A stretch of DNA of 63,989 nucleotides, filler included, from Kipferlia bialata (Eukaryota): the NCBI GenBank assembly GCA_003568945.1. It is 5 parts of 5 records of this genome, joined end to end, with 100 filler letters (N's around TTAATTAATTAA, not from the genome) between each part and the next. Parts side by side here need not be neighbours in the genome. Positions count along the whole stretch, not along the records: positions 51,312 to 63,989 come from BDIP01001048.1; 4 more parts are not named here. One strand, 5' to 3'. Numbering within the stretch: position 1 is the stretch's first letter; each line of letters opens with the position of its first letter. Shown piece by piece: positions 13,450-59,091 of the stretch. Position numbers and translations under genes: made by a program. Below the pieces are notes generated by a model that saw nothing but the letters and a program-made list of their open reading frames with translations, did no database searches and was not told the DNA's origin.

Positions 13450-16400
13450 ATGGGCCATCACGCTGCCTTTCTGGGAGTGGTACTCCTATGTATGTCTCTG
13501 TGCAGAGCATATGCTGACCCCATTGGTGGTGGGTCTCCGTTTGTCTGTCCAGCCCCAGAGCACCCAGACTTCTATGGGGACCCCTCCCAGTATGTGTGCC
13601 CCCCTGGAGTAGAGGGGGGGTTCCCACTCGAGTGGCTCTCAGCAGTCAACAGTGCGTAGACTTACACTCTCTCAACGTATATTGCCCCCTCGTTTCTCCC
13701 TGTTCTCACTCCAGATGCGACTGTTCCAGTCTCCTTCCAGAACAACCCCAAGATGGCCATCCTCAGGAGTTTCTTCCCCACCAAGACTAATCGCCTATCA
13801 TACTACTTGGACTACACGGATAGCCAGAATCCCTCTCAGGAGCAGATACTGCACAAAGAGGGGGCATTCTTCTATTGGGTGAGTGATCTCTTGATTCCTT
13901 CATTCAATTCCAATGTGGTATACCTGTTTGATACGATAGATAGTTGAGTCAGTAGGGTGTATGTCATATATACCTATAGTATAGGTAGCCTATACTCACT
14001 GACTCCCTCACCCAGGCATCCTGGATCTCCCCTGTGCTCGTGTGTCTAGTCACCATTGGGTTCATCCTCAGACTGTGTCAGTACACTATGTCAAGTGATG
14101 TGGGGGAGATGCACTGGCCGCTATGCATTCGCTGTCCCTGTTGCGACCTGACTGGTAGGTATACATACCTATTTCCTGTACATAATCCATATATAGGATT
14201 CCATTTGCAGGGGCAAAGATTCGATTAGCTTCTTATCCTAGGTATGGCATTGACGTGACGGACCTCAGAGCTCTGGACCAAGAGCAGTCCCATAATCAGT
14301 GTGACACCTTCACAAACAAGGACCACACCTACGTCGGTGTGTACAACCGGCAAACATACGTGGGAGGCTTCGTCACGTGCTGTTTCGTGACCGTCTTTGT
14401 CTGTTCTCTCTTTAGCCTGGCCATCCTCGTCGTTTCTATTCCCCCTGTCAACCTTCCGAGTGACATCTCTGGAGAGCTATATCCTGACGGCCTGGTAGAG
14501 AGAACTGTACGGCATATGACACCCACACATACATATACTATACTCTAGTGCACTACACTTTGCTACCCCAGGTGTCGAGTGTACCCTATACCAGCCTCTT
14601 TGATGCTGAGATACTCAGAGACTGGTTGCTGCAGAGAGACAACATGTATGTCACAGAGGTACGTGGGAAAGAGAATATGTGTCATTACTTCACTAGACAT
14701 GCATGCCTCGGATATTTTCCCTCAATTCACTAAACCGTTGGTGTGTCTCCCTCATCTTTCCTTCTTCCAGATCATTGGCGGTGATTGGGGTACCACGTGT
14801 ATAGACGCTTCACTGTTAGAGGGCTTGTCCTTCTGGGATAAAGTACAGGTGAGTGGTACTTATCTTGGGACAACCTTTGTCATGCTACTCAGTTAGAATA
14901 GCCAGATCAACTGCATATATATCGACTTATCTGTATCAAGTAGCAGCTCACACAAAGCATTCACTATATATAAACAATATTCACCTCCAGATGGTTCCGT
15001 CAGCTGCTTCCGGAGCCATCCCACCGCAAGTCCAGCCTGACAGTCCAACAACCACAACGGTTCTTCAGGAGTCCGGTGCTATCCAGTTTGAGACAGAAAA
15101 CTGCTTCCTGATGGGTGGAACCGCACCCTGTTCTGAGACATTCTCCAATCCAGACATCTTTGACCCCATCAGTAACCCAGTGGTTCAGTACGGGTGCTTC
15201 ATCGATGAACAGGGCATGTACCACCATCTGACCCTCGTCACAATGCTGCTAGTAAGCCAAGTCCCCCAGGTACGATATCCATTATGCCATTGACGCACTA
15301 TTTATGGTAACATGTATTCTTTATACACTCGTCAGGATGGGCTGGAATTTCGTATAATTTTCACAGTCTTCTATTTGCTGATGCTTGGCTGAGAACACGA
15401 GGTCCTAGTATTATACTATAACTCATCTTGGCAGCTTTACCTGTCTGTTTTACCACTACTCTTCGATATATGCGCCAATTGTCGCTATGTCTCCTCACTG
15501 TGATATATACATATATATGACTGATATATATACATTGTTCTGCCACTCCTGCCTTGCCTCAGCCTCTGACCCTCACTCCACAGGGAATGGACCCAGTGTA
15601 CACAGTGAAGTACACACCAACCAGAGAATTCCCACAGTTCGGCACAAACGTTGCAGGTAGGTGATACATATACAGTGTATGCACCCAACATTCAATATCG
15701 ATATGGTTGTTGCCCCACGTGTCTCACACCCTATTGTGGCATTACTGGGAATCCCTCACACTCCCAGCAGTCAAGGAGTACGTACTTCCATCCATGTTCA
15801 ATGTGTATGCAATGGGCACACGGGACCAGATTCAGTGGGTAGATAGGTACAAGCTACATGTGGTATATGTATACATACATAGGATTAGATAACCCCAGGT
15901 CCATGGCCTCTGATGAGACATACCCCTACATAGTATGCTCCTGGATAGAAGTGCTCGGCTACCAGGACAAGGGAGACGAGTTTGTTGACTGGGAGTGGTA
16001 CGATAAGTGCTTCCTAGGCTTCGAAGCACATCCGGGCATGGTGCGTGCGTGGTACCTGCTTATGGGGGAGCCAGTCGATGACATGAACGATTTGATTCCC
16101 TTTGACGTCACTAGGTGAGTAAAAGACTACCGTATAGCTGTATATGTATATATATGAGAGACATTGACTTAGTCTCTTCAGACTTTGTAATTTACAGACT
16201 ACTTGTTTGGCTCATGCTGTAACCATAGATAGCCTTAGTTAGTTATAGCTCCATTGGTAGTTCTAGACTTAGTAGGGAGCTGCAACCCTAAATTTACTCA
16301 TATGTTTCAGTATTTCTGTATATATTGGCTTCATACGTACTCAATCCGTGTGCAAGGTTGGTCATAACCTGTAGTGGTTGGAACGGATTCATACTTATTG

Positions 16401-17845
16401 TCATACAATACTGTCAATATGTCTGTTATTTAGAGTCTGGTTTGCGTAGTATCATCACTACGTTGTCACATTATCTCGCGCTACTACGATTGACGCCAGG
16501 GTTGCAAGTGTCGGTGTGGGACCACTGCCACATATCAGTGCATTTGACAACCCAGGAAAGCAGTGCAGGCTCGTGTGTACTCGTGTCGGGACTAAGTGCT
16601 TCTACGAGGGTCAGGTAAGTGGTAGTAGATCGTAGCAAGTACCGAGACAGTGTGTGAGAGTGCAGAACACATCTGACCGACTATTAATAGTACTGTTACC
16701 TCCAGATGTGTGCTGCCCTTGCTACTGGTGTCCCAAACGTTGGTGACTACTACCATGATGAGCCCTGGGTCCCCTATTCGAGTCATGTATGGCAAAGTAC
16801 CTTGTGTATTCGTCAAAGTCTGACTAGGTGCATGGGTATGAGGATTCCAACATCTCACACTAGGTGTCTCAGCCCACTGGGGTGCTGTGTCCTGACGTCC
16901 AGCCCTTTAGAGTCCGCTCTCAGATAGGTTTGTAAGCATGCAGGGGTATAATGCTATGATCGCTGCCCTGTGATATTCTAAATCCTCCGGACACATAATG
17001 GTGTTAAGACTCAATTTCAAGGGCTGACTGCTATAGATCTATACTCCAGTGCTGGCACACTTTCTGAATCTAGGTTACTCCATGGGATGGGATCTCACTA
17101 ACGTGTCGGCAAATGAGGACGCTGACCATGCCATTACCCACTACGCCACGGTTTATGACACCATCTCCAGTCAAGGGTTCAGTGTGTGTCCAGAGGGGAC
17201 CCAGGTAGAAGACAGTCTCTCCACATACACTTATTCTCTTCTACTTACTATTACTATTAGTTCTTTATGTATTTCAACGTACTCAAATGTGCCTCCCAGA
17301 CCCTATCTTCTTCTGACTTCTTCTTGTATTTGTTCTTCTTTGTTCTTCTTCTGACTCAGGCCACCAGACAGGACCCCCTCTCAGTCAGTGTTGTGAGAGA
17401 GTTTGCTGCCGAGGTCGTTATGATTGACTTCTCCGTCCCATCTATCCTAGACATTGCCGAGGTGTACCTCTTGCTCCTGGTATCTCTGCTGATGTGTCAC
17501 TGGATGGTCATGTGGGTGGTGAGCGTGGTCCACTTCCAGGTACGATTTGTTTTTACCGAGGCTCTCTATACGAATCTCAGAACCATACAGGTCACTAAGC
17601 TAATGAATCAGAAGAAGCATTCCCGAGTCCCTGCTGTAGATACAGTGACAGCCCCTGAGGGGTCTGAGTCGGGTGACGATTCAGACACTCATGCAGAGGA
17701 ATCCAGTGTCGATGCATCATTCTCTCTTGTCTCTTCAGACTGTGGCTCTATGGACAGGCAGGAAGTGTGTGTGGTGGATGTGCACACGGAGGAGGCTGAG
17801 GTTGAGTCTTCGGATGCTGACGAGAGGCAGCCTCTGCTGGGATGA
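13450..17845 (+). CDS. Hypothetical membrane protein with signal peptide and several TM segments, multi-exon
   Basis: N-terminus MGHHAAFLGVVLLCMSLCRAYADP is signal-like; hydrophobic segments near 14020-14070, 14370-14440 and 17460-17530; acidic C-terminal tail ending QPLLG*. Confidence 0.7.
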
Positions 17846-18123
17846 GGCAGGGATATATATGTGGTAGACTGGCACTGTCAAGCAGTACACTTTCTTCTCC
17901 AGTTCTTTGACAATAGAATCGTTAATCACTGTTTGACCCAAAGGTTCTTCACTCAGTACTTCGCGATTCCGCTCTTTCACTGCTGGTTATGGCCAATACA
18001 TACCACAGCAGTTGTGATGCAATACCATGCTGAGTCTGATAGGTACAATGCCTCCTCTCAGAGGATGACACCTAGCAAGCTAGGATACCCACAAAGGTTG
18101 TTGAAAGAATGTATCAATTTGTC

Positions 18124-30150: not shown

Positions 30151-30500
30151 AATACAATATATACATACACATACAAACTGATACCAGGGCACTGCTCCGC
30201 ATGGCACACAGCATCAATGCTGCTGCTCGCCACAAGCGAGTGCGTATCGGACAGCTACTTGGCAAGGCCAAGGCAGATAGGGAGGAGGAGATAGATGCCC
30301 TAGTCAGGGAGGGCATGGAGGAGGAGGAGAGGGAGAGGGAGGAGGAGGACTACTACGTCGACCTCGTCTTCAACAACGACGTCATTGACCTCACCCCCGA
30401 CGTCACCGTTGACCTCACCCCCGACGTCACCGTTGACTTCACCAACGACCTCGCCGTTGACAATGGTGAGACCGAGATCGAGGCACTCTTTATCAGTTGA
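30042..30500 (+). CDS. 3' exons of an acidic protein with tandem VIDLT/VDLT (SIM-like) motifs
   Basis: Two exons in phase, ending EEEDYYVDLVFNNDVIDLTPDVTVDLTPDVTVDFTNDLAVD..FIS*; 24-bp tandem unit. Confidence 0.55.
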
Positions 30501-46835: not shown

Positions 46836-49800
46836 ATGGCCCGGAAGTCCCGCTCCAAGGCGTCTAAGAAGAAGAAGAAGGGGGTAGTACAGCCGGGTAA
46901 CCGCGATGTGTTTGCCTGGATGAACCTAGAGGAGCTCCGCTATGACAACCGGGAGTATCAGAAGCAGGTGGGGCAGTATCAAAAACAAAACACAAGGGTG
47001 CGGTGTTTCCCCCCGTCTCCCTGGAGACTGACTATCCACTTGTATATGTATATATATGTATATGTATATATTATAGTATGATACCCACCCGGCATGGATA
47101 GTGCATTTGGCAAGTGGTGAGTGCACTCTATGCACCTGTATACTCATTGTAATTATAGCAGTATCTTCTCCTTTGTCTCTACTCCCCCCCCCCCCTTACT
47201 CTCAGGATGCTTGACATCGCACACGAGGACTGTCGGTACCTGCCTGACAAGATAGAGACCTACGAGAAGGAGGACCCCCACAACCCAGACCCAGGTATAT
47301 ACATAAGCTTATATATACATACATACATATATACATATATATCTTATATATACAGATATACATAGTTACAAGCCTTATAAATTGTGTAATGAGTAGACTC
47401 TCTCTCCCATCTCTCCAGAATCCCCATATTTTCGTGTTTGAGTGACCCATACAACCCAGACCCAGGTAGACTATTCATAATAGTGGACATACAATCATAG
47501 AGATATATACGTCTCACGTATATATGAGTGAGGGTCTGTGTGTGTGATGTTAGTCTATTATGTAACAAAGGAGCTTTCTCCCCACCCCCACAAGTTCATT
47601 CCTTCTAGCATTGACTGGTCACAGATATGTGACATGCAATCACTCCTTCTTAACTCAGGGCTGCTGAGGCTCCGCACCCGGGGTGCCTTTCTGTTCAACT
47701 GGTGGGTGGGCGCCAAGCCTGGGGACGTGTGCACCAAGTCCGTACCCACCATCAAGTACAACGCACCACACCGCTACCACTGGAGGTACTACCACACACC
47801 AAATATACATCCCACACCAGGTCTACTATATCAAGTACATACACTACCCACTCATCACCCTGCCTCCCCTCTCACCCCAGCAACCAGGTGTATCAGACCA
47901 TCCCCATGTACCTGGGTACCACCCACGTGGCTGTGGGGTTTGTGGACCTGGGGACTCTCCTCTGTGCAGACATAAGGGGAGTGGAGGGCGAGGGGGAGGG
48001 TGCTGGCCCTCTCTCCTATGTTGGGTATGAGATGGTGGCCCATAACGTCGCCAAGTCCCTGATCCTGTGGCACATGATGCAGGGAGAGGGTGACATCAGG
48101 GATGTAGGGGACATGGTGCTGCAGGTATATATACTGTATATATATATATACATTCTATACTGGTACTGACACTGATACTGGACATGGTGGCTGCAGGTGG
48201 GGATATATACATATAGCTCTATACCCACTGTAAACGATACACCATTCTCGTTCTCTCATAGCATTCTTCCATATGCTGGGTACCCCGACTTGGAAGCTTC
48301 TCGTTCTCTCTCTCTTCTCATGTTCTATTATTGTATCTTGCTGTGTGTTACTTGTGCCTCTCTAATTATAGGTCTGGTTCTCCTCCAGCTGGGAGCCCCG
48401 CACCGAGGCTGCCTTCCGTGCTGCTGCCGTGGCTGCCCTCTCCGCCCTGTCCCCAGGTACACACACACACACACATGTATATATATATATACGTATGTCT
48501 ATAGATCTCTCTCTCTCTATGTATTTACATTCATCCACCCCTGTCCCTGATACCAGACACTAAGGGCTGGCTTGATATTGTTGCTGTGCTCAGACACTGG
48601 ATAGAGCCTGCCAATGCCGCTCCTCCTCTGGCTAGGTACAAGCCTATAGTAATATACTACAATATATACAGTACTATATACACATACTAACCCCCCAGGT
48701 GCAGAGAGCTGTGGCAGGCCCAGCACGAGCTGTGCCTCTGTCACTGCCTCAAGAGACCATGTGACAGAAGGGCAGTGGCGGCATATGAGCTGGCTGGTGA
48801 CTTTGCAGTGCCCCCCACCCCTGCTGGGACTGAGTGTGACCTGGTTGGTAGCATGGTCCTATACTGCTCGCCAGATGGCACACCACCCGGTGTCAAGGTT
48901 AGTATATATCAATATACATATACACTAAGTACTGTGTGCTAGTGGATAACACATATGTATACTCACATCAGGACGAGAAGGTGTTCTCCTGTGCCCCCTT
49001 TGATGAGGTGTGCCGTGAGTGCAGGCAGGCTGAGGAGGCAGAGGGTGCAGAGGTGTCTGTAGTAACAGGGGTGGAGAGGTGGCTGAGGGGCAAGGTCCAC
49101 AACCTGATCCCGAGGGCCAGGGACGGCAGTGTGACTGTCTCCCTGCACCTTGGTGACATCACGGACAAGGCAGTGGTTAAGAGTGTGGCTGCCATGGCAC
49201 CACGCACCATGTCCTGGTCCAATGTGCTAGACTACATACCTGCCAAGGCCTTCCACACCCTGGCTAAGCAGTGTGGAGGGAAGACGTGCACACACAACGG
49301 GTATAGCATGAACTGGGGCATATATATATATATATACCTATATATATATATATATATATATATATACGTGGCTGGGTGCAGCCTGCTAGACATCCACCAC
49401 ACCCCGATGCGCCTCAAGGTGCTGACCCTGTACAGACAGTTCCAGGTCAAGGTACGACAGGAGACTGGTATGCATAAGTATATAGTATATACATGATGTA
49501 GTCGATAACTGATACTGATACTGACCCTGTACAGACAGTTCCAGGTCAAGGTGTGTAGTGTGTGTGTAGCATAGCATATATAGCAATTATCCGTCAACTA
49601 TTATTATTTGTTGGCAGTTCCAGATCAAGGTGTGTAGTGTGTATATACTATATGTGTATATACATAGGCTAGTCTCTTACTACTCCAAGGTGGCACAGGA
49701 GACTGGTATCCATAATATGTGGTATTCATATACAAAATATATATATATACATGATGAATCTCTTACTCCCAGGTGGCCCAGGAGACTGGGGTGCTGCCCT

Positions 49801-51767: not shown

Positions 51768-52978
51768 ATGACTGAGTCTGTTAACAACACCACCAGCACT
51801 GCCAGCCTCGTGATGCTAGAGACTGGTACAGTGGCTGAGAAGACAGCTGTGATCAAGAGAATCACAGCTCAGATTGAAGGTATATTTATATGCATTATTG
51901 TGCTACCGTCTGCTACATTGTCTTCTAGGGGACTACTACACACTATTGTCTGACTACTAGGCTCTGAGGAGAAGACTGCCGAGGCCGCTTCCCTGTGTGA
52001 TGCTGGTATGCCATGTAGCTTGAAGTCTAATACACATCACCCCTACACGCTTCCTCTACACGCTTCCTCTACACGCAAAACTGCTAAATCATATGTATAC
52101 CACCCACATATATATAGATATATATGTATATATATATATATGTATGTATATGAGAATACAGATCTCACCATAGGTCTCTTCAGCACTGTGACCTCCCTCC
52201 TCAAGGCTGAGTGGGAGAGAGACACTGCCGACGAGACAGACACTGAACACGTGGTTGCTGTGCTGGACATGCTGCTCAATGCACTCTGGGTGTCAAGTAC
52301 GTACATATATATACTTATTATGCATCGCACAGTGTGTATATATAGTCATTAGTGTTAGTGAGTGCATATTGTATATATATGGGTATATACATATATATAT
52401 ATATATGAATATATGATAGTGGCTGTACTGGACATGCTGCTCAATGGACTCTGGGTGTCAAGTACGTGGCACATATATATACTTGAAGTATGATACTTCA
52501 GAGACCCGGCACATACATACACCAGTCCATGATAGATATATCACTGTGTAGGTGTCAATCTCGTCTCTAACCCCAGGCAGAGTCAGAGCCCTACTCCCCA
52601 GTGAGGTAAGATAGCCTATACAGTACTATCCATGTACTTCACATTGTAACTTTCTGTGAATGGAAGTAAGAGATTCTCACATCACACTGAGCTGATATGC
52701 CTGCTCCTCATCCATGTATATAGCTTAGCAATAACTGAAGCTGTACAGAGTATTATACAATTATAACGTGGCTGATACTTTCTACTAACGTTAGACCGAG
52801 CTGATGTGCCTGCTCCTCCTCCTCCTGTGCAGGACAGGCCCAGAGGACAGGTATACATAGAATATACATGTATATATGGGTATATATAGATTGTATAGTA
52901 TATTTGGTATTGCACTACTGCTCCTGTGCAGGACAAGCCCAGAGGACAGGTATGCATAGAATATATTATATATATATT

Positions 52979-53013
<35 letters not shown>

Positions 53014-53117
53014 ATATATATATATTGTATGGTATCTTTGGTATTGCACTTCTGCTTCTGTGCAGGACAGGCCCAGAGGACAGGTATACATAGAATATAG
53101 TATATATGTATTTAGAA

Positions 53118-53149
<32 letters not shown>

Positions 53150-56100
53150 ATATATATAGATTGTATGGTATCTTTGGTATAGTACTACTGCTGCGTTGCA
53201 GGACAGGCCCAGAGGACAGGTATAGTGTATAGCATCTCTAGTATTGTGTATTCAATGTATATAAACTTTACATATATATATATATATATATATATGAACA
53301 TCGCCTCCTCTCACACCAGCCGTCCCACTGTCTCTGTGGAGTCACTGGAGTACGTCAACACTGGTCGCAAGGTGTGTGGTTACACTCTTACAATTGTGAC
53401 ACACATAGAAATTTATACAACCGTATGTAATGTGTATATATACTAATGTTTCACGTAGACCCCTCACCCCAGTCAGACTACAGCACCATCAACGATGTGG
53501 GTCAGAAGGTCGGGGACGTCATCAGATGGTGAGACGACTAGCAGACATCTGATTGCTTCCAAACTATGTATCTATCAATCTCTCACCCCAGCACCTCCAT
53601 GGACGGAGACGGTATCCGTGCATGGGCCGGCATAGGTATGTCTTGCTAGATACCATTCATACATATATGTATACATTAGATATGATATGATATGGTATCC
53701 GTGCATGGGCTGGCATAGGTATGACACACATACGTCTGTCACAATTATAGACTGTGCTATTATATATCTGCATTATACTATATCAGGGACACACCGGTGA
53801 CCGGTCCATGGCCTGGTATGTAAAACTGATATATCAATGATATCATATCATTCACAGTATTTAGATATGGTATGATATGGTATGATATACAGTTCATGGG
53901 CCGGTATAGGTGTAACTGATATCATTCACAGGATATACAGATATACATTATATAGATATCCACTCAAGCTGCAATTCTCTCCCACACCCAGATGCACACA
54001 AGGTCTTGGTCGCTGCTCTTGAGGCACAGGCACAGAACCCAGCGGCACGGTGTATCATACTATATACTGTATGTTATGTGTATCTGGGCTGACACAACGG
54101 TGTATGTGTGTTTCATTATGTAATATGCCTGACCCTAGGTCACTTAGCTATTGATGGGCCTCACTCTGTACTCACCAGTACCTATATACTACCTATATAT
54201 ATAATATTGATGTATATGTCTAGTTATCCATATTGATCTCAGTCTAGGCCCACCAGCTCCTCCTGGCCTCTCTGTGGAGTCTGTGCAGTACTATAACTGT
54301 ATATACTATTCTACGTATGTACTATTCTAGTTGATCTAATCATTAGGCCATCCAGCTTCTCATAGCATCTCTCTGGTGTATATATATCTAGCATATGTAT
54401 ATATATCAAGCATATATATATAGTACGTATATACATTCTATTATATGCCTAACTCCAGGCCACCCAGCTCCTCATGGCCTCTCTCTGGTCTCTCTGTAGA
54501 CTCCCCTCTGCATGCAGATCCATAGCAAGGGAGGTCGTGGTACCTGTGACCAAGGTATATATATATATATAGGTTTATATATATATATATATAGGTATAT
54601 ATATATATATATATAGGTATATATATACATTGACAGCGTGTTGGTATTTACGATGAATTTCCCAATCGTCTGTATGCCCTAACACGGCCAAATGGTAATT
54701 ACCAGTAGCATCCAGTAGTTTCTGTTTCCATGGCATCCTAGTCAAGTATGCAGTATATTCAGTAATACTAAAAACTAACTTAGTATACTATCCATGTACT
54801 TCAAGACTACCACAATTTGACATCCAGGTCATGACGGCCAACCCAGTGTTTCAGTGCTATAACAATTAGCACCATATACTGAGTATATTATACTCTGCTA
54901 TACATTGTAACAGTAGTATACACTATACATACTGTGTATACCAACCCCAGGTCATGAGGGCCAATCCAGAGGACGACTCCCTGCTCACAGGTATATATAT
55001 ATATGTGATTTATATTATATACATTGTATATATATATGCTATGTCCCCCTCCTCACTGGTATTGATATCTGTGTGTGAGTATATACTATTTTGCTCCCAG
55101 GTAATTGTGAGAAGTAGACGTTGAATCAGTGTATCTAAGCTCCCTCTAATATTATGTACTCATGCTCACCCCCAGTCTGCTGTGGAGTGCTCAAGTGCGT
55201 GTCCCTGCTAGGTAGGACCCAACTTTCACATTACACACAGAATACTCCATAGTCTGCTGTGATCAGTTATCACATGGTGTGTTAGAGTAGTATCCAATAC
55301 ACATATCCCCACCCCAGATGGCTATGAGCAGGGCATGTGCGACCAAGTAGCAGCCACACATATGAAGTGTTAGTATAGCATACAATATATACTGTATATG
55401 TATGTATGTATACTCACTCCAGATGGTTATGAGCAGGGCATGTTCGACCAGGGTGCAGTGGGGGCAGTCATGGAGGTACAGTATAATACAGAGTGGAGTA
55501 TATATATGTATACACATTAGTACATAGTATAGTGTAGTAGAGCACAGTATATCCGACAGGGTGCAGTGGGGGCAGTCATGGAGGTATAGTATATATACAT
55601 GTATATAACTATGTTTCTTTCATTTCCTACTCGCTTGACCCCAGGTCCTCAAGACCCGTGAAAATAATACTCTTCCAAGACCTACAAGAGACCCTCAATT
55701 ATTAATAGACTAGTATTAATTGACATATTATATTGCTGACCGCAGGTTCTCAACACCCGTGGAGACTCCTCCAAGGCCCTAGCAGCACAGGGACTGGAGG
55801 TGCTGCAGAATGTGGCTGGGGAAGGTATATTGCATATATACTAAATACAATATAGTCTATATTATATAGACACAGTCTGCAAGTATATGTATGTATATAC
55901 CTTATCTGCTGGTGCTGCAGAACGTGGCTGGGGAAGGTAGGTTCTCAATATACCTCTTAGAGTACTACAAATACTATTAGATATATCATATTTATCTAAT
56001 GTATCTAATATGTATTTTATCTTTGTCTTAGGTGCTGCAGAACGTGGCTGGGGAAGGTATGTAAACACAGCGTATCTCACTAAACAGATATATGATCATA

Positions 56101-57527
56101 CTCTGAGAACATTATTCTCGTCGTCACTGAGTACTGCATATAGTGGGGTGTATCCATTCTGACCACAGACAATGTGGAGCTGGCCATGGTCCAGATGAAT
56201 GTATATTGTATATACATATATCACTATGTCTAATATGTATTATATCTTTGTCTTATACATCTTCTTATACCAGACAACGTGCAGCTGGCCATGGTCCAGA
56301 TGGGCTGTGCCAGAGAGGCATGCCGTCTGTGCAAGGTATAATGTTAGAGTACTGATGCAAAACTTGAAACTTCTTCTGTTAACAACTAATAACTATAATA
56401 CACCTAACAATAGGTCCACCCCTCTGACCCCGCTGTGTGTGACCATGCCATGGCAGCCATCATGAACATGGCATACCAGGGTATATAGTGAATAGTATAA
56501 CCTGTAAATTGTGTATGCATAGATACAATTGGCGGAGTCACCTTTTCTTACTCCCAGACTCCACCAAGCAGGTCCTGATTGATGACAACAAGTGCGGTCT
56601 CATGGGTGAGTACAAAGTATATATCTATACATCTATCTATATATGTATCTGGATTGGTAATTAGATAGAAAGGTTATACAAGTGTTTTCTCATGGGTGAG
56701 TAACCAATTCTGTATGTATCATAGCGTATACCAACCATGGATGTACATATATAATCCCTGTGATTCACTTTCTAATCTTGTAGTTCTTGTACTTTGATAG
56801 TAGTTAATAGTATTTGTATGTTATGTTATGTCTATATATATGAAATCTACCCAGACTGTCTGTTTAAGGTCCTTGTCGACATGCATATGAATGTGATTCA
56901 CTTAGTAATCCTCTAATTACTGGACAGTGCTATATTGTCGTATGTATGAGCATATAATATAGAATTGCCGTTACCCCAGACTGTGTGTTCAAGGTCCTTG
57001 TGGACATGCATGGATACGCCCAGATCGCTGGACACACCATACAGCTCATATGTGAGTAAGACTGCAGAGTAATATGTACTGCGTTGTTGCCTTTCTGAAA
57101 TCTTCACTCGTATGTAATCATATTCCTGTTCACTCAGTCAAAGAGTCTGGTAATATTGTTGCTCCTCCACTTTGACCTCTCAGTACTCAGTCTAACTCTC
57201 TAGGTGCCCTTGAGAACGTGACCTGGGACCTCACCATTGGCAGACTCAGAAAGAACCAGGAGGAGAAGAAGGCTCTCCTTAGGGTATGGTCTTTCCAATG
57301 ATATTCACTGTATGATAGAGCAAATAGTGTCTGTATCCTAGTGTATACCTCTAGTACCTCTAGTTCTGACTGTCAGGCCTTCCAGCTCCATGACACTCAG
57401 ATGGTGCAGAGGAACAGGTACAACATATATAAATGAATATATCTATATATATATGTGTGTGTGAAATGTGATATATAAATATACTTATATATTACACGGT
57501 GTTGATGGTGCAGAGGAACAGGTATAA

Positions 57528-57564
<37 letters not shown>

Positions 57565-58390
57565 TATATCTTTATATGTGTGGTATATGTGATATATGTA
57601 TATACTAATATATTATATGCTGTTGATGGTGCAGAGGAACAGGTACTTGATACCACTGTGTAGCATTGACCCCTGATGTATTCATATATGTATGTATATA
57701 TGAATGCATGGTGTTATGTAATCATGAAATGAACTGTATGGTGCAGAGGAACAGGTATGCAACAATATACATTATTTCGGGTAACTATACCTCAGCCGAT
57801 TACTCTCTTGCCAACGATAGCGGGGAACAGCTATATTACTATAGTGTAGAACTACATTACTATAGTGTACAGCCGTGCTTATCCATGATTGATATTCAAG
57901 TGATTGACAATCTATCTCTCACTCCAGGGGTTGGTTCCTGCGTGAGATGAGGACACCCAGAGACATGAAGGTATCTATATACAATAGATTAGTGAAAATG
58001 CGTTCTATTCAAGGTTGAGTATAGTATATTTGTATAGGGAGATGAGGACACCCAGAGACATGAAGGTATCAATACTATAACAAGAGATGAATATAGTTTC
58101 AATATATAGTCAGTATAGGGTCATGTCTATTTGTATAGGGATATGAGGACACCCAGAGACATGAAGGTAATAAGATATATATATATGATACATACGGCAA
58201 AGTATACGTAGGAATTGAAATGTAACATTTCTGGTGTATTCGGGACACTTCTATGAGAGTTCTCTCATATACAATACTCTACATTGTGCAGTATACTATA
58301 CATATACCCCTGCCTCACCTCCAGGACCTCCAGCCCGGGGACATTGTCGATGGGATGGAGGTGATGTTCATTGGACAGCAGAGGGAGTAA
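51768..58390 (+). CDS. Armadillo/HEAT-like helical repeat protein, many short exons
   Basis: ATQLLMASLWSLC..VMRANPEDDSLLTVCCGVLKCVS..QGAVGAVMEVL..GLEVLQNVA..DHAMAAIMNMA..IGALENVT; stop TAA at 58388-58390. Confidence 0.75.
52823..53219 (+). repeat. Tandem array of exon-end + donor + intron-start units
   Basis: gcaggaca(g/a)gcccagaggacag|gta ends at 52850 (live), 52949, 53083 and 53219, with the following intron sequence co-duplicated. Confidence 0.93.
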
Positions 58391-59091
58391 AGAGGTGAAG
58401 AGAGGTGAAGAGAATGTCTGACGGAAATAGATATGAGGGTACATACCTATCATATGAACCTGGTGTTCATGGGGTTCATTGGACAGCAGAGGGGGGAGTA
58501 AACTCTACTCAGTAGAGAGGAGTATATTAGCAGGGAAGGTGCTTGGATGTAAATAGACGGAAGGTTCAAGTGTTGTATTCATATAAACAGAGATGTCTGA
58601 TGTGTATTATGTTCATTGGACATCAGAGGGGGGAGTAGAGAGGGGTAGAGAGGTGTAGAGAGGGGTAGAGAGGTGTAGAGAGGGGTAGAATAATGTCACT
58701 GTCACGAAGATAGGGAGGGGTTGTATCTAGTTGATAATATCAACCATGGACACTGGTACCAACTTGATTTGGTGTGAATAGACGGAAGATGATATTGTTG
58801 TATTGACACATATGCGAAACTCCGCCTTCAGAAGATCACAATTGGGTCTATCAGGAACACCCCACCAATCTATGTTGTCATCAACATGTAGTATCATAAT
58901 CAGTAGTGGCTGATTATGGCACGCGGTCCTCTGGAGACAGCCACGTAGTAGCACTATCCGTTACGACCCTTACTCCCCTTCCCACTGACATTCTCTTCCT
59001 CAATATTCCAAGGATGCCAATAGATAAATCGACCAAAATGGCAACAAGTTGGTCCCTCTCCATGTGAATTCCACCCTAGGACTCTGGGACA

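What the first reader, a model, noticed from the sequence alone, without database searches (positions are those of the whole stretch)
54139..54554. Graded series of variant exon starts in the ARM-like gene
Seen: AG-preceded copies encode AHQLLLASLWSLC (54248-54286; tct>agt, ctc>ctg, tgt>tgc) and AIQLLIASLW (54347-54376), with a decayed copy at 54139, before the live ATQLLMASLWSLC (54459). The most distal copy is the most decayed. Inference: a stratified record of successive exon versions, or a variant-cassette array.
Basis: partly seen in the sequence, partly recalled or inferred. Interest (0 to 1): 0.75.

Follow-up and report, generated by a model that had tools for sequence, protein, structure and literature searches.

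The report
Old exon versions stacked in introns
In the protist Kipferlia bialata, most introns of the three genes examined hold short, likely dead copies of the neighbouring exon's edge that differ from the working exon mainly at silent letters, which likely means they are leftovers of older working versions replaced by DNA copied from diverged relatives.

Summary
Intron 9 of an ARM-like K. bialata gene (KIPB_004752) holds three AG-preceded copies of the first 31-41 nt of exon 10, spaced 99-112 nt apart. They are not a cassette array: each covers under half of the 96-nt exon, and one has a stop and a 1-nt insertion. The gradient is weak: the near and middle copies are equally diverged (26 of 30 each), and window-wide the far copy is worse in 9 series, better in 3 and tied in 3. 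The case is one instance of a window-wide pattern: 66 copies in 34 of 55 introns, 64 of them anchored at the adjacent splice junction. The surprise is the divergence: 5.6% at 0-fold sites against 25% at 4-fold sites (ratio 0.22, repeated in 11 further pairs). Copies dead from birth give about 0.5 (0 of 400 simulations reached 0.225 in each of two settings). Dead acceptors keep their branch-like motif while their flanks differ strongly from the live flank. Best reading: break repair copied about 110 nt across the junction, often from a diverged homolog, and left the old junction behind. No second strain or informative RNA was available.

The parts
51768..58390 (+). Host gene KIPB_004752 (P0002), 450 aa, 22 exons, weakly ARM-repeat-like
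   Evidence: Pfam ARM_ARMC5 E 0.0011, below the curated cut-off; 28 distant hits at 20-34% identity
53992..54044 (+). Exon 9, upstream of the intron
   Evidence: exact spliced mapping of P0002
54045..54458 (+). Intron 9 (414 nt); the annotated protein maps only with a GC donor
   Evidence: single best path; not spanned by the RNA-like contig
54139..54173 (+). Distal copy of the exon-10 start, 320 nt upstream of the live start; AG at 54137-54138, branch-like CTGAC before it, stop codon and 1-nt insertion
   Evidence: (24 of 32, score 12)
54248..54288 (+). Middle copy, 211 nt upstream; 33 of 41 nt, 11 of 13 residues kept, Ser tct/agt switch; AG at 54246-54247
54347..54377 (+). Near copy, 112 nt upstream; 26 of the first 30 nt, all four changes G/C to A/T; AG at 54345-54346
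54459..54554 (+). Live exon 10 (96 nt, ATQLLMASLWSLC...)
   Evidence: in P0002; its 3' part (54518-54551) is joined to exon 11 in the RNA-like contig

Best explanation
The three copies are partial duplicates of the intron-exon junction, likely dead, that were likely left behind when DNA repair laid a new junction piece of about 110 nt next to the old one, in many cases likely copied from a diverged working version of the same gene. Shown: copies cover only the exon edge plus its splice signal; start copies lie upstream and end copies downstream; the outermost sites are the ones joined in five introns of this gene; differences are biased to silent sites; dead acceptors keep their branch-like motif. 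Inferred steps: (1) a break falls inside an exon; (2) one end invades a homologous exon, the only well-matching DNA, and is extended across the splice site into that template's intron; (3) it is end-joined to the other end without annealing, so the new piece becomes live and the resident piece becomes the copy; (4) events that stay inside an exon or make an included exon are purged; (5) the direct repeat then seeds ordinary tandem amplification. The template is sometimes the sister or nearby DNA (identical copies) and often an allele about 0.15-0.2 silent changes per site away, met during unobserved sex or cell fusion.
For: 64 of 66 copies are anchored at the adjacent junction with fixed polarity (12.4 expected); spacing median 108 nt, quartiles 99-125; GT kept in 36 of 38 and AG in 21 of 26. 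Nearest copy of 41 series: 44 of 792 0-fold sites differ against 47 of 190 4-fold sites. The composition-aware dead-from-birth expectation is 24.8 4-fold changes (P 0.0007). In simulation through the same detection steps the ratio is 0.51 (0.32-0.80), 0 of 400 replicates reach 0.225 in each of two settings, and a diverged-donor setting reproduces both rates. In 11 further pairs from other genes: 11 of 185 against 14 of 50 (p 0.026 against 0.5). A branch-like motif precedes 15 of 26 dead acceptors, 37 of 55 real ones and 62 of 802 background windows, so the copies have decayed little. Yet their flanks match the live flank at only 221 of 410 positions against a 0.385 baseline: related, but much further apart than 5% decay allows. 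The RNA-like contig joins first donor to last acceptor in introns 10-14 with no other letters. K. bialata is listed with Dmc1 and PolQ and without Rad51A and Ku70 (PMC8516963, supplement rows).
Against: No donor allele or paralog was seen, so the diverged template is inferred only. If every 4-fold site mutated at the fast G/C rate, the excess weakens to P 0.033. Changes private to inner copies (13 of 328 against 5 of 55) separate neither neutral nor constrained history. Flanks are less alignable than silent divergence predicts (13 of 60 spacer pairs detected, simulated power 0.92 at 25%), and some identical copies have unrelated spacers. One spacer was copied from nearby DNA in the same intron, so the origins are mixed. 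Within the finding itself the near copy looks like plain A/T-biased decay. The sample is three annotated genes and 11 hand-picked pairs in one window.
Confidence: 0.55

Rival explanations
1. Plain tandem duplication from the sister chromatid, dead from birth. The silent bias would come only from later silent change in the live exon, with faster mutation at 4-fold sites, or with the live exon later swapped in register for other alleles.
For: Polarity, spacing and kept splice signals fit. Neighbouring units are clearly homologous head to tail in several series, 9-14% apart. Seven live-only changes in triplets are all silent.
Against: The basic form predicts a ratio of about 0.5 against 0.22 observed twice. 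Copies 92% or more identical in the exon part have a detectably homologous flank in only 4 of 27 cases. In the finding the live flank resembles the distal copy, not the adjacent one. The in-register-swap form still needs diverged alleles.
Confidence: 0.28
2. The copies are or long were translated, through minor splice isoforms or non-canonical junctions, which keeps their coding sense.
For: Low 0-fold divergence and conservative changes such as M>L and the Ser tct/agt switch. YAG lies at the far edge of 18 of 35 end copies (9.9 expected).
Against: In-register GT/AG switch sites occur in 3 of 61, against 0-10 in shifted registers. None of those 18 YAG sites has a branch-like motif. Two stop codons. 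The one RNA-like contig skips the copies in five introns, although contigs drop rare forms.
Confidence: 0.1
3. A variant-cassette array of mutually exclusive exons, or decayed remnants of one.
For: Several protein-like versions lie in a row, each behind an AG.
Against: No whole-exon copy among 66 (largest share 0.85, median 0.44). Spacing leaves no room for an intron beside a 96-nt exon. Decay of whole duplicates would leave four kinds of remnant, but only two are seen (64 of 66).
Confidence: 0.04
4. Assembly artefact from mixed haplotypes.
For: The copies look like allelic versions.
Against: One unbranched DNA contig spans the whole region with no differences, at depth 384 against 379-439 for neighbours.
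Confidence: 0.03

Closest known systems
Junction-spanning minisatellites: human F7 IVS7 (37 bp), LMNB2 (100 bp), PDGF intron 4 (81 bp), CBS IVS13 (PMC1557585, passages read)
   Same: The first unit spans an exon-intron border, so the splice site is repeated in the intron, and the most upstream donor is the one used.
   Different: Those are single loci with many near-identical units at donors. Here 34 of 55 introns are affected, at donors and acceptors, with 1-4 heterogeneous units, poorly matching intron parts and coding-type divergence.
Intron gain by tandem duplication across an intron-exon border: potato RdRp (PMC4974935, passages read); Rogers model; internal gene duplication of Gao and Lynch 2009 (not held; known only as cited in PMC4974935)
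   Same: A duplicated piece holds the intron 3' end plus the exon start, like the start copies here.
   Different: There a cryptic donor creates a new intron. Here no in-register donor is enriched, and the copy is absorbed into the old intron, which grows.
Mutually exclusive exon arrays of the Dscam type (recalled)
   Same: Related exon versions lie in tandem inside one gene.
   Different: The copies are partial, lack a second splice site in frame, and some carry stops.
Aborted strand-invasion repair finished by end joining, giving templated tandem duplications (recalled; one search gave only three review listings, not read)
   Same: One-ended copying would give exactly the two polarities seen.
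   Different: Usually described with the sister as template. Use of a diverged homolog at most splice junctions is inferred here and was not found in my searches.

Membership tests
Mutually exclusive exon array | Whole-exon copies | tested here: not met
   0 of 66 whole; these three cover 31-41 of 96 nt
Mutually exclusive exon array | Each copy has an acceptor and an in-frame donor | tested here: not met
   GT near the far edge in 7 of 26 start copies against 41% background; in-register sites in 3 of 61
Mutually exclusive exon array | Alternative copies appear in transcripts | tested here: inconclusive
   the only RNA-like contig begins at 54518, past the copied part; it skips copies in introns 10-14
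Junction-spanning minisatellite (F7 IVS7 class) | Unit spans the exon-intron border and repeats the splice site | tested here: met
   64 of 66 anchored; AG in 21 of 26, GT in 36 of 38
Junction-spanning minisatellite (F7 IVS7 class) | Homogeneous head-to-tail units, intron part included | tested here: not met
   only 1 of 6 flank pairs among the four versions ranks at p 0.05 or better, and it is live against distal; met in some other series
Junction-spanning minisatellite (F7 IVS7 class) | Outermost splice site is the one used | tested here: inconclusive
   met for introns 10-14 in one contig; for intron 9 only the annotation says so
Junction-spanning minisatellite (F7 IVS7 class) | Copy number varies between individuals | not testable with these tools
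   one DNA holder only; no relative in two metagenome scans
Intron gain by tandem duplication | A new in-register GT...AG intron removes the duplicated piece | tested here: not met
   3 of 61, against 0-10 in shifted registers
Silent-cassette variation (VSG, vls, pilS type; recalled) | Copies supply amino-acid variation to one surface gene | tested here: not met
   differences are mostly silent (dN/dS 0.17) and occur in unrelated genes
Recursive splicing points | AG|GT sites used stepwise | not tested
   the distal copy reads AG|GT; raw RNA reads would be needed

The most novel reading that the evidence does not exclude
K. bialata introns grow mainly by junction replacement from diverged alleles, so a single genome keeps, junction by junction, a stack of former working exon versions. 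That would be an archive of population diversity and direct evidence of repeated cryptic sex or hybridisation in a free-living fornicate whose recombinase is Dmc1 only.
Probability: 0.4. Interest if true: 0.8.

Novelty: new variant of a known kind. Interest (0 to 1): 0.6.

Why it matters
About half of the intron DNA in the three genes (7,182 of 14,310 bases) lies in these units, so the process may explain intron size in the fornicate that the genome paper calls the only intron-rich one of its clade (124,912 introns; PMC5874029). If the silent excess reflects diverged donors, it gives a test for sex from one genome, in a group where sex has not been observed (PMC8516963). It also gives many natural tests of how a reduced spliceosome (87 of 174 proteins found; PMC6679479) picks the outermost sites, and it warns that such copies can mislead gene prediction.

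Tried and rejected
No whole genome is held for this window, so no genome-wide count was possible. Run search: no RNA holder listed; the added same-sample run, RNA by guess only, gave one contig that does not reach intron 9. A second read-laying, on the transporter gene, was not obtained, so splicing there rests on annotation alone. Paralog or ortholog as donor: single-exon searches returned only the Kipferlia protein, plus one distant transporter; the profile-free scan of representatives gave 28 hits at 20-34% identity, too far to polarise codons; two metagenome scans found no relative; no solved structure matched. Distance gradient: not significant. Spacers as whole new introns: YAG is enriched before end copies, but 0 of 18 have a branch-like motif. 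The search for spacer sources across the window was swamped by simple repeats and its output was cut. Selection to differ from the copy, and conversion between copy and live exon on the same DNA, were rejected by argument: neither takes the ratio below 0.5. Earlier notes on this genome: none.

Full report
Setting. The window is five joined contigs (N runs). Three exon searches returned proteins named Kipferlia bialata. The finding lies in KIPB_004752 (P0002, 450 aa), which maps exactly to 22 exons at 51768-58387. ARM likeness is weak: Pfam ARM_ARMC5 at E 0.0011, below cut-off, and 28 distant hits at 20-34%. The copies lie in intron 9 (54045-54458), and the live exon is exon 10 (54459-54554).

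Observation. The translations, substitutions and AG sites are as stated. Scores are 25, 24 and 12; controls reach 16 in 1 of 1,988 pairs and 12 in 30 of 1,988. One DNA contig spans 53306-54551 without differences at normal depth (possibly the assembly's own source). The series is not cleanly graded. The near and middle copies both match 26 of 30 nt, the three copies share no change with each other over the first ten codons, and the live flank is closest to the distal copy's flank. The 18 mismatches for the distal copy are inflated by its 1-nt insertion; the gapped figure is 24 of 32.

The wider pattern. With three annotated genes mapped (55 introns), 66 exon copies scored 12 or more, in 34 introns; about 2 false hits are expected. 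Of these, 64 touch the adjacent junction (12.4 expected), always exon-start copies upstream and exon-end copies downstream, and none is a whole exon. Spacing is 108 nt at the median (quartiles 99-125). GT is kept in 36 of 38 and AG in 21 of 26. One contig from a run guessed to be RNA joins the first donor to the last acceptor in introns 10-14 with no other letters; it starts past the copied part of exon 10, so it does not test this intron. The farthest copy is more diverged than the nearest in 9 of 15 series, less in 3 and tied in 3 (p 0.15); overall rho is 0.04.

Not a cassette array. Beside a 96-nt exon, 99-112 nt of spacing leaves 3-16 nt. In-register switch sites occur in 3 of 61 copies against 0-10 in shifted registers (three weak anchored copies of score 12 were dropped from the 64). 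YAG sits at the far edge of 18 of 35 end copies (9.9 expected), but none of the 18 has a branch-like motif.

The silent excess. Over 61 copies, differences fall at codon positions 1, 2 and 3 as 35, 24 and 111 of 534 codons; dN/dS is 0.17. A copy dead from birth decays at all sites while the live exon changes only silently, which bounds the 0-fold/4-fold ratio near 0.5. Taking only the nearest copy of each of 41 series, the rates are 44 of 792 and 47 of 190, ratio 0.22 (p 1e-4 against 0.5). Allowing for faster G/C mutation, 24.8 4-fold changes are expected (P 0.0007); under the most generous assumption 32.1 (P 0.033). Simulation through the same detection steps gave 0.51 (0.32-0.80), with 0 of 400 at or below 0.225 in each of two settings, while a diverged donor reproduced both rates. 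I hand-picked 14 further exon-copy pairs by similarity, with frames from a codon model; 2 gave no alignment and 1 was left out as part of P0002. The other 11 gave 11 of 185 against 14 of 50 (p 0.026). Against this, changes private to inner copies (13 of 328 against 5 of 55) are inconclusive, and within the finding only the middle copy looks clearly like a former working version.

Flanks. Dead acceptors keep a branch-like motif in 15 of 26 cases, like real ones (37 of 55) and unlike background (62 of 802), so they have decayed little. Yet flank positions +3 to +12 match the adjacent junction at only 221 of 410 against a baseline of 0.385, and whole spacers were detectably homologous in 13 of 60 pairs where simulated power was 0.92. 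That test misses some visible cases: neighbouring units align at 9-14% difference in several series, which shows secondary tandem amplification. One spacer in P0001 was copied from nearby DNA through a shared six-base word.

Mechanism. Low 0-fold change, high silent change, kept splice signals and related but distant flanks all say that the live piece and the copy parted long before the copy died. The simplest route is one-ended repair: a break in an exon, invasion of a homologous exon, about 110 nt of synthesis across the splice site, then end joining. This is inferred. It fits the published repair set: metamonads lack Ku and DNA-PKcs, fornicates lack Rad51A and use Dmc1 (PMC8516963, section 8 read), and the supplement lists Dmc1 and PolQ for K. 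bialata (rows seen; one supplementary file could not be read). Dmc1 may tolerate mismatched templates better (PMC6719624, abstract and one section). Sex has not been observed in metamonads though the genes are kept. No donor was found.

Known comparisons. The closest class is the junction-spanning minisatellite (PMC1557585, passages), then duplication across an intron-exon border (PMC4974935, passages). Passages of PMC3488318 and PMC2891723 gave background only. The genome paper has no occurrence of 'duplicat' in its main text and does not mention such copies in the passages and section read (PMC5874029; its supplements were not read). Ten literature searches (mostly listings only) showed no report of this pattern in Kipferlia, nor of junction copies with coding-type divergence; subscription journals are largely not covered. 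Earlier notes of this scan describe similar junction copies in single animal genes; they are unchecked leads.

Verdict. The feature is real and the cassette reading fails. The record-of-versions reading holds as a statistical result for the window. New variant of a known kind; interest 0.6; confidence in the diverged-template mechanism 0.55.

Noticed in passing
window 54045-54050: Intron 9 fits the annotated protein only with a GC donor, with a GT five bases on that gives no open frame; the genome paper counts GU-AG introns.
   Followed up: partly
window 49452-49500 and 49690-49758: In P0001 intron 9 the first spacer is a copy of the downstream exon-start copy plus its spacer, joined through a shared CAAGGT; the copied GT now serves as the annotated donor. 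It looks like a local template switch.
   Followed up: partly
whole window: Copy density is uneven: 35, 3, 7, 5 and 25 local repeat pairs in the five contigs. The gene at about 12840-17850 has none and has short introns. Unexplained.
   Followed up: partly
window 5571-6113: Four exon-end copies in transporter intron 18 arose partly by duplication of a two-unit block (units 1~3 and 2~4 align).
   Followed up: yes
window 3335-3385: A 51-nt exon-start copy differs from the live exon by five silent changes and no amino-acid change, with a 70% matching flank: the cleanest single case of a former working version.
   Followed up: yes
window 58460-58640: The last exon's end, stop region included, is copied twice downstream of the P0002 stop codon, so the process is not limited to introns.
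   Followed up: partly
window 2425-2491: A further exon-start copy, missed by the census threshold, matches its neighbour copy at 79% with flank: a copy of a copy.
   Followed up: partly
window 30355-30460: Short tandem coding repeat (DVTVDLTP-like units) in a small gene on the + strand.
   Followed up: no
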